Origin: Saccostrea echinata | Lineage: Eukaryota | NCBI RefSeq assembly: GCF_033153115.1 | Contig: NW_026889758.1 | Coordinates: forward strand, 11,408,001 to 11,472,000 | DNA: 64,000 nucleotides | Reading direction: 5' to 3' | The notes under the pieces: generated by a model | Told to the model about the DNA's origin: nothing | Database searches by the model: none | The model's input: the letters and a program-made list of their open reading frames with translations, nothing else | Shown: positions 4,949 to 5,240 of the stretch, in pieces | How the letters are laid out: each line of letters opens with the position of its first letter | Position numbering within the stretch: position 1 is the first letter of the stretch | Translations under genes and position numbers: made by a program

Positions 4949-5240
4949 TGTAATGGTTTGGGTCGTGGATATCGGCCTGGGTAGCTCAGTGACAGTTGAC
5001 TAGTGATGCAGGGGTCCTAGGTTCAATTCCCAGTCCAGCCATACATTTTCTCCTTTCCTGTTATAGATTTGGTGCTATTGACCACCCCTGGACTTGCAGG
5101 TGAGAGAATAAGAACTTGGGTTGTGTCTTCGAGGAGGAAGACAATTAAAGGAGAGAGGAATGTAATGGTAATAGTGATGCAGGGGTCCCAGGTTCCATTC
5201 GCAGTCCATGCAGCCATACATTTTCTCCTTTCCTGTTCCA
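4949..5240 (+). mobile_element. TRIM (miniature LTR retrotransposon) with tRNA-derived LTRs, Helenus-like
   Basis: LTR1 4949-5065 (TGTAATGG...TGTTATA), PBS-like tggtgctattgacc 5070-5083, polypurine tract (PPT) aaaggagagaggaa 5147-5160, LTR2 5161-5240 (TGTAATGG...TGTTCCA). 4-bp TSD CAAC at 4945-4948 and 5241-5244. Pol III A/B-box relics (gtagctcagtg, ggttcaattcc) lie in the LTR. Confidence 0.85.

What the first reader, a model, noticed from the sequence alone, without database searches (positions are those of the whole stretch)
4949..5240. 292-bp LTR retrotransposon whose LTRs carry a tRNA-type Pol III promoter
Seen: TG-initiated direct repeats, a PBS, a PPT, a 4-bp TSD (CAAC) and A/B-box relics inside the LTR. 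An internal gtcttc...gaagac hairpin before the PPT is shared with the 10.9-kb element. Known (from memory): TRIMs carrying small-RNA promoters exist (Cassandra with 5S; Helenus with tRNA-like LTRs and 4-bp TSDs in animals). Inference: this is a Helenus-like family that simple annotation would miscall as a SINE or tRNA pseudogene. It may be an uncatalogued subfamily.
Basis: partly seen in the sequence, partly recalled or inferred. Interest (0 to 1): 0.7.

Follow-up and report, generated by a model that had tools for sequence, protein, structure and literature searches.

The report
Known oyster mini-retrotransposon and likely helper
This is a decayed copy of an abundant 355-base jumping element already catalogued in oysters (Helenus-2), and hybrid copies and a second tRNA-matching box in the same genome suggest that it likely borrows the enzymes of one particular gypsy retrotransposon and likely grips its tRNA primer at two separate sites.

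Summary
Observation confirmed. Window 4949-5240 is a worn copy (67 bases deleted) of a 355-bp TRIM: LTR 123, internal 109, LTR 123, with 4-bp target duplications (13 of 16 copies; control 4 of 240), solo LTRs and tandem arrays. It is not uncatalogued: a young copy matches the published Helenus-2_SaGl consensus at 339 of 355 positions (by eye). The element at 10.9 kb is Helenus-1_SaGl-like. Three things absent from that paper's text: (1) two hybrids join a Helenus LTR to the inside of one young tRNA-His-primed gypsy family, one inside a matched duplication, and that family shares Helenus's ends and polypurine tract: the likely helper; (2) a second 13-base box pairs with the T-arm and variable loop of host tRNA-His (0 of 300 shuffles), while Lys-primed families carry tRNA-Lys boxes: a likely split primer site; (3) copies that captured primer tRNA past position 58, three ending at position 38. 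Pol III transcription is untested. The scan met Helenus-type elements before in other genomes, but not this sequence. Known family, modest new mechanism.

The parts
4945..4948 (+). left target-site duplication CAAC
4949..5065 (+). 5' LTR (117 of 123 bases; 6 deleted in box A)
   Evidence: alignment to young copies
4975..5041 (+). tRNA-like segment: box A remnant 4982-4990, box B 5020-5030
   Evidence: matches the segment that Rfam RF00005 (48.8 bits) and ARAGORN call in young copies; not called in this copy
5046..5049 (+). T4 run behind the tRNA-like segment, candidate leaky Pol III terminator (inferred)
   Evidence: sequence; present in all 10 rows in the 5' LTR
5070..5083 (+). [quoted passage not shown]
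   Evidence: host tRNA-His(GTG) gene; Fig. S2C of PMC10886601
5112..5124 (+). second box complementary to tRNA-His positions 56-43 (13 pairs, one G-U); intact in this copy
   Evidence: (0 of 300 shuffles)
5124..5143 (+). hairpin directly before the polypurine tract
5147..5160 (+). polypurine tract
5161..5240 (+). 3' LTR, 47 bases deleted including box A; box B remnant 5191-5201
5241..5244 (+). right target-site duplication CAAC
10838..11181 (+). sister element, Helenus-1_SaGl-like (5' end worn, 18 bases deleted at the PPT/3' LTR joint, no clear duplication)
11184..11210 (+). 27 bases behind the sister element's 3' LTR that match the complement of mature tRNA-His at 23 positions: captured primer

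Best explanation
The stretch is a decayed, probably dead copy of the oyster TRIM family Helenus-2 (Helenus-2_SaGl type), which likely spreads by having its short RNA packaged, reverse-transcribed from tRNA-His and integrated by a young gypsy family of the same genome. Shown: the LTR-PBS-PPT-LTR anatomy, 4-bp duplications, solo LTRs, tandem arrays, identical copies at different sites, identity to the catalogued family, tRNA-His sequence (with the non-encoded CCA) captured behind Helenus LTRs, and two Helenus-gypsy hybrids. Inferred, with odds: (1) Pol III starts at the tRNA-like segment of the 5' LTR, reads through the first T4 in some transcripts and stops at the second, giving a roughly 315-nt template with a repeat of about 80 nt at each end (0.65); (2) tRNA-His binds at two sites, the short PBS and the 13-base box, with a hairpin looped out between them, much as in Ty1 (0.65); (3) the gypsy family that shares 10 of 11 bases at each end and 14 of 15 in the polypurine tract supplies RT, RNase H and integrase (0.75). 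Family identity alone: 0.97.
For: Family anatomy and duplications. Identity to Helenus-2_SaGl: LTR 117 of 123, internal 105 of 109 columns, by eye; published lengths 123/108/354 and 4-bp TSD. Recent activity: 4 matches 100% identical over 355 bases at three places with duplications CTTG, CAAT, TAAG. Priming: of 92 exact 18-base tRNA-His sites, 15 lie behind a family-A LTR and 12 behind a family-B LTR, although the families' own PBS is not the exact 18-mer; 6 of 7 longer tRNA copies lie in Helenus context. Second box: runs of 12-13 pairs to tRNA-His in 7 of 8 distinct family-A and 7 of 9 family-B internal regions, against 6-9 for tRNA-Lys and tRNA-Ser; 0 and 1 of 300 shuffles; 31 of 34 family-A copies keep 12 or 13 pairs; RNAcofold pairs both sites; by eye 8 of 15 published His-primed bivalve families, scallops included, keep 12 or more pairs and the other 7 keep part; a Lys-primed family of this genome has a 10-base box for the tRNA-Lys anticodon arm (1 of 500 shuffles). 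Helper: gypsy domain order protease-RT-RNase H-integrase; exact His PBS; shared ends and PPT; 4-bp duplications in 3 of 5 copies; LTRs 99.0-99.8% alike in 4 of 6 copies and open gag and pol frames in 3 of 6; hybrids L194 and L240, the latter inside ACAA/ACAA.
Against: No transcript start, end or strand could be seen: all RNA runs were contigs. The tRNA-like RNA and the internal region fold no better than shuffles (z -0.70 and -1.27; window copy +0.32). Whole-duplex energy does not single out tRNA-His (32, 6 and 118 of 300 shuffles as good; tRNA-Lys and tRNA-Ser score as low or lower), and without G-U pairs the box is an 8-base match (20 of 500). The 6-base box of the larger Lys-primed family is not significant by run length (300 of 300). 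Two published families assigned to tRNA-Lys (Helenus-1_CGi, Helenus-2_CVi) hold a 10-11-base His-like stretch. Copies are related, so counts are not independent events. Only two hybrids were found; L194 has no matched duplication (AAAG/TAAC); a search for a gypsy 3' end joined to a Helenus LTR found 0. 43 of the 92 His sites were unclassified and include other LTR families.
Confidence: 0.8

Rival explanations
1. The second box is a fossil: an ancestor captured primer tRNA by read-through, and the stretch is carried along without pairing today; or it pairs with the T-arm of the element's own LTR.
For: Read-through captures occur in this genome. The first 9 bases of the box can also pair with the LTR's own T-arm (two G-U; read). 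Duplex energy is not specific.
Against: The box is exact in six scallop families and changed only by G-U-compatible letters in the two Saccostrea families while neighbouring sequence diverges; its last four bases fit the tRNA-His variable loop, not the LTR; Lys-primed families carry boxes for tRNA-Lys instead.
Confidence: 0.3
2. The hybrids are DNA-level accidents (ectopic recombination or nested insertion followed by deletion) and Helenus-2 is moved by another, or by several, His-primed LTR families.
For: About 30 bases of similarity at the U5-PBS joint could seed recombination; L194 lacks a matched duplication; other His-PBS families exist; two loci show a Helenus copy inverted beside a gypsy fragment (L196; L242).
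Against: L240 has one Helenus end and one gypsy end inside a matched 4-bp duplication; the L194 joints fall at the PBS and at a PPT-like stretch inside gag, where template switches are expected; I saw no hybrid with the other families among the 92 sites.
Confidence: 0.22
3. The RNA template is made by Pol II read-through from host genes or neighbouring tandem units; the tRNA-like segment serves structure or packaging, not promotion.
For: T4 in the 5' LTR could stop Pol III early; tandem arrays exist (L008, L030); PMC10886601 states that the promoter is unvalidated.
Against: Boxes A and B are the conserved part across families (PMC10886601 section 3.5) and intact in young copies, while the acceptor and anticodon stems are flawed.
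Confidence: 0.25
4. It is a tRNA-derived SINE pair or a tRNA pseudogene duplication.
For: tRNA finders call the LTRs.
Against: Fixed TG...CA ends, PBS, PPT, strictly 4-bp duplications, solo LTRs with duplications, no A-rich or simple-repeat tail.
Confidence: 0.01

Closest known systems
Helenus-2_SaGl (Saccostrea glomerata; Kojima 2024, PMC10886601, Data S1, Table S1, Fig. S2C)
   Same: LTR 123 bp, 4-bp TSD, tRNA-His PBS with the same bulge, same hairpin and PPT; young copy L007 matches at 339 of 355 positions by eye.
   Different: Internal region 109 against 108 bp; anticodon-like letters AGT instead of AGA; the window copy has lost 67 bases. The paper's text names no helper family for it beyond PBS likeness to Gypsy-39_CGi and has no word on hairpins, a bipartite PBS or chimeras.
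Helenus-1_SaGl (same paper)
   Same: The element at window 10838-11181 and its family B.
   Different: Here a variant carries the exact 18-base tRNA-His site in place of its own PBS and the bases behind it; the window copy ends in captured tRNA.
Cassandra and Ajax (5S-bearing TRIMs, as described in PMC10886601)
   Same: Non-coding LTR element with a small-RNA promoter inside the LTR.
   Different: 5S-type promoter, 5-bp TSD for Ajax; Pol III transcription shown only for Cassandra.
Ty1 and Ty3 bipartite primer-binding sites (PMC5371799, passages; PMC3592414, passages); HIV-1 primer activation signal (title seen in reference lists, content recalled)
   Same: Short PBS for the acceptor stem plus a separate segment for the T-arm side of the primer tRNA.
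   Different: Those are autonomous elements with biochemical proof; here the element is non-autonomous, the primer is tRNA-His, the segments lie about 43 bases apart around a hairpin, and the pairing is only predicted.
biv-TRIM (Satovic 2019, PMC6934838, part 1 of 5 read)
   Same: Bivalve TRIM with solo repeats, tandem arrays and an internal hairpin.
   Different: Repeats of 202-218 bp, internal 77-80 bp, no clear PBS; a different family by these features (sequences not compared).

Membership tests
Helenus (TRIMp3) | Non-coding element under 1 kb with two LTRs, TG...CA | tested here: met
   355 bp, LTRs 123 bp, up to 100% alike; window copy ends TA (5' LTR) and CA (3' LTR)
Helenus (TRIMp3) | tRNA-like segment with boxes A and B inside the LTR | tested here: met
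   Rfam RF00005 48.8 bits in both LTRs of a young copy; only remnants in the window copy
Helenus (TRIMp3) | PBS complementary to a tRNA 3' end, and PPT | tested here: met
   host tRNA-His gene
Helenus (TRIMp3), animal | 4-bp target-site duplication | tested here: met
   13 of 16, none at 3, 5, 6 bp, control 4 of 240; 17 of 28 in the first set
Helenus-2_SaGl | Sequence identity to the published consensus | tested here: met
   339 of 355 for L007, counted by eye, not computed
Helenus (TRIMp3) | Transcription by RNA polymerase III (proposed, not validated in the paper) | not testable with these tools
   RNA runs were contigs only
tRNA-derived SINE (SINE2) | tRNA head at the 5' end, A-rich or simple-repeat tail, duplications of varying length | tested here: not met
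Functional tRNA gene | Regular cloverleaf with 7-base anticodon loop | tested here: not met
   ARAGORN gives mostly 'tRNA-???' with a 4-letter anticodon; mismatch in the acceptor stem and an extra base in the anticodon arm
Retrozyme / ribozyme-bearing TRIM | Self-cleaving ribozyme in the LTR | tested here: not met
   Rfam at gathering score found only the tRNA match in a young copy; only 24 bases follow the tRNA-like segment
Ty3/gypsy (the candidate helper) | gag, then protease-RT-RNase H-integrase; LTRs; PBS; PPT | tested here: met
   no tree was built, so the clade is not assigned

The most novel reading that the evidence does not exclude
Animal Helenus elements compress a whole retroviral cis-kit into about 110 bases: a split primer site whose second box is re-tuned whenever the primer tRNA changes, a structure-conserved hairpin and a borrowed PPT; and in this oyster-type genome the helper is pinned down by Helenus-gypsy hybrids integrated as single units, with both partners recently active. 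That would be a first directly supported helper-parasite pair for an animal tRNA-promoter TRIM and a general rule for how such elements hold on to a helper without sharing LTR sequence.
Probability: 0.5. Interest if true: 0.58.

Novelty: already known. Interest (0 to 1): 0.38.

Why it matters
The element itself is catalogued, so the finding as given is ordinary; its practical point is that thousands of these LTRs inflate tRNA gene counts in oyster annotation. The added value is mechanistic. PMC10886601 says that it is not known how a TRIM's dependence on its autonomous partner is maintained, and links animal Helenus to gypsy only through PBS likeness. Hybrids, shared 11-base ends and PPT name a candidate partner that was active recently in the same genome, and the second tRNA box gives a concrete cis signal that can be tested with short RNAs in vitro. 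The captured primer copies also record where reverse transcriptase stopped on a modified tRNA in the germ line.

Tried and rejected
SINE, tRNA gene and ribozyme readings: rejected. A 10.9-kb-long partner inside the window: none seen; the only long ORF is a Toll-like receptor, and seven shorter ORFs (six in the window, one in a gypsy copy) had no Pfam match (eight with window 47858-48568). Expression: contigs of RNA libraries cover the whole element. Summed depth on the element against a neighbouring 166-bp repeat was about 5:1 in X6, 0.3:1 in X11 of the same study, 0.03:1 in X14 and of the order of 0.3:1 in X15 (kind unknown); the tool warns that this depth is no measure of expression, the control repeat is itself present in RNA, and X6/X7 carry the letters of the published consensus, so they are from a related species. 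I take it only as a hint of condition-dependent abundance. Folding energy gave no support for a special structure. The hairpin test (41 of 56 copies with 6 or more pairs, 27% in base shuffles) counts related copies; the MAFFT alignment put families A and B out of register, and my anchored pair table kept only 20 of 45 rows, all family B (one pair C:G in 7, T:A in 4), so covariation rests on reading the published consensuses by eye. Further hybrids: 0 for a gypsy 3' end plus Helenus LTR, 1 for the exact 5' joint, 1 of 6 further regions. Sequence look-up in earlier findings: nothing. Literature searches for the added points; none showed a bipartite PBS or a helper hybrid for Helenus, but subscription journals and Repbase Reports are not covered.

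Full report
Observation. A genome search gave 1,414 candidates, 40 scored, 91 matches. Mapping them showed a 355-bp unit of LTR 123, internal 109, LTR 123, with tandem arrays that share LTRs. The window copy differs from the young copy L007 by 24 substitutions, deletions of 6, 14 and 47 bases and a 4-base insertion, so 292 bp is the length of a worn copy, and box A is damaged in one LTR and gone from the other.

Target duplications. In the first set 17 of 28 loci had an exact 4-bp duplication (L009 left out as the same place as L008, L030 as a long array; the misses include tandem ends, truncated copies and three loci with the same flanks). Among the 20 best matches to L007, 4 were tandem ends and were set aside; 13 of the other 16 had a 4-bp duplication, none had 3, 5 or 6 bp, and mismatched pairs gave 4 of 240. 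The two sets overlap. Of 30 LTR hits, 4 were solo; 2 had exact duplications and 2 (one locus held twice) did not. Four matches were 100% identical over 355 bases at three places with different duplications, so the family moved recently.

Identity. I read the whole main text of Kojima 2024 (PMC10886601) and parts 1, 5, 6, 7, 9 and 10 of 11 of its supplement, with two term searches; parts 2-4, 8 and most of 11 were not seen, nor were the figures. By eye, L007 differs from Helenus-2_SaGl at 6 of 123 LTR positions and at 4 of 109 internal columns, 339 of 355 in all. Table S1 lists 123/108/354 bp and a 4-bp TSD. The element at 10838-11181 belongs to a sister family like Helenus-1_SaGl. The host is therefore likely an oyster close to Saccostrea (inference). 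The tRNA-like segment scores 48.8 bits with Rfam and was called by ARAGORN in 25 of 29 loci, mostly with a four-letter anticodon: a promoter-like relic, not a proper tRNA.

Primer. The host tRNA-His(GTG) gene was found (8 gene copies and 1 captured copy among 9 hits); CCA is not encoded. The family PBS pairs with 13 of its 3' bases with one bulge. An exact 18-base complement including CCA occurs 92 times: 16 in one gypsy family with its LTR, 15 behind family-A LTRs, 12 behind family-B LTRs, 6 with only downstream Helenus or gypsy sequence, 43 unclassified. In the Helenus cases the element's own PBS has been replaced by a copy of the primer, as expected when plus-strand strong-stop DNA copies the tRNA up to position 58. 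Seven sites run further: 6 in Helenus context, two of them one duplicated locus; three end at tRNA position 38, one near position 20, three at 27-30 bases. The sister element in the window has such a tail (11184-11210), two loci hold a long copy with an insertion, and L035 holds a near-whole tRNA between two inverted LTRs. In HIV-1, stops before m1A58 and at the modified base 37 are known (PMC13191261, passages). That tRNA-His carries m1G37 is recalled; the passages seen in PMC11417395 name m1G37 in many tRNAs but not this one.

Second box. About 43 bases behind the PBS, past a hairpin, family A reads GAACTTGGGTTGT and family B GAGCCTGGGTTG; the tRNA-His complement reads GAACCTGGGTTGT (positions 56-43), and each difference is a G-U pair. 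Runs of 12-13 pairs were found in 7 of 8 distinct A and 7 of 9 distinct B internal regions, against 6-9 for tRNA-Lys and tRNA-Ser; shuffles reached them 0 of 300 (L007 and window copy) and 1 of 300 (B) times, and co-folding pairs both sites. 31 of 34 family-A copies keep 12 or 13 pairs. By eye, 8 of the 15 His-primed bivalve families of Fig. S2C keep 12 or more pairs, six scallop families exactly, and 7 keep part. Lys-primed copies of this genome (16 distinct internal regions from 30 of 59 hits) lack it; 14 of 16 keep a 6-9-base match to the 5' strand of the tRNA-Lys T-stem, which is not significant by length, and one family has a 10-base match to the anticodon arm (1 of 500). Against: duplex energy is not specific, the strict Watson-Crick part is 8 bases (20 of 500), two Lys-assigned published families hold a His-like stretch, and copies are not independent. 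Split primer sites are established for Ty1 and Ty3 (PMC5371799 and PMC3592414, passages). The Helenus paper's text has no 'bipartite', 'extended', 'hairpin' or 'chimer', and a search for TRIM with bipartite PBS returned 0 papers.

Helper. Six of nine fetched regions belong to one LTR family with the exact His PBS; 3 of 6 have open gag and pol frames, 4 of 6 have LTRs 99.0-99.8% alike, the pol order is protease-RT-RNase H-integrase, and 3 of 5 have 4-bp duplications. It shares 10 of 11 bases at each end with most Helenus-2 copies and 14 of 15 in the PPT, and it too has a stem just before the PPT (A+T-rich, weak). Two hybrids link them. L194 (G000:C54): Helenus LTR, exact PBS, about 750 bases with the gypsy 5' region, a switch at a PPT-like stretch inside gag back to the Helenus PPT and LTR, then a further Helenus unit; no matched duplication. 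L240 (G000:C1): Helenus 5' LTR, gypsy 5' region, then the last 114 bases of the gypsy LTR, inside ACAA/ACAA. The simplest reading is strand transfer between two RNAs in one particle, followed in L240 by an internal deletion. Two cases are few, and DNA recombination is not excluded.

Hairpin. It is real and common (41 of 56 copies with 6 or more pairs), but the internal region folds no better than shuffles. The published consensuses, read by eye, keep a stem at this place with changes on both sides (GTCTTCG/CGAAGAC, GATCTTCG/CGAAGATC, GTGTTCG/CGAACAC, GAATCTTCA/TGAAGATTC). A packaging or PPT-positioning role is a guess.

Transcription. Boxes A and B are intact in young copies and followed by T4. 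A Pol III model predicts RNAs of about 83 and 315 nt. Contigs of RNA libraries cover the element but cannot show ends, strand or level; see Tried and rejected.

Earlier findings. No look-alike by sequence. By words, the scan had noted Helenus-type elements in other genomes, two with a proposed twister ribozyme. That lead made me re-read the internal region; no ribozyme was found by Rfam, but the second box was noticed then.

Verdict. Interest 0.38, carried by the helper hybrids and the likely split primer site, neither of which I found in print within the searches named (listings only, except the papers cited as read, and passages of PMC12859917).

Noticed in passing
window 41453-43999 (+): Single-exon 848-aa frame with LRR and TIR domains, a Toll-like receptor gene.
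   Followed up: partly
window 17066-17147 (+): Well-formed tRNA-Ser(GCT) gene, Rfam 66.3 bits; used as a control tRNA.
   Followed up: partly
window 5433-7243: Element with long inverted arms built of 41-bp repeats, starting 190 bases behind the finding; MITE-like.
   Followed up: no
window 24540-26211: 248-bp inverted repeats, 88% alike, with inner inverted arms; likely a non-autonomous DNA transposon.
   Followed up: no
window 28904-30550, 17709-18084, 49161-51237: Arrays of a 165-168-bp repeat, common in other loci too; resembles the oyster Cg170/HindIII satellite (label recalled).
   Followed up: partly
window 7754-7892: Near-perfect 68-bp palindrome arms with a 3-base spacer.
   Followed up: no
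window 38926-39816, 44672-45028, 47632-48498: Three copies of a dispersed repeat of up to 900 bp around the receptor gene.
   Followed up: no
L035:1150-2000 (G000:C37): Near-whole tRNA-His copy between two head-to-head Helenus-1-type LTRs in a rearranged array.
   Followed up: partly
L196 and L242: A gypsy 5' fragment followed closely by an inverted Helenus copy, twice; nested insertion or aberrant reverse transcript.
   Followed up: no
L261, L267, L272, L273: A short Lys-primed Helenus family whose LTR I did not recognise by eye among the S. glomerata families of Data S1 (internal region like Helenus-3_ArIr and Helenus-6_SaGl); may be unlisted.
   Followed up: partly
L073, L080 and about a dozen more; L074, L141, L157; L066-L068; L172, L173, L187: Other repeat families with an exact tRNA-His primer site, not classified.
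   Followed up: no
run X6 on L007 and L095: Summed contig depth of 400,000-600,000 on the element, some 20-fold above sibling runs X7 and X11; may mean strong induction in a related oyster, unverified.
   Followed up: partly
L249-L253 (G000:C54:40.11 Mb): Tandem array of 14 tRNA-Lys(CTT)-type matches at about 1.22-kb spacing.
   Followed up: no
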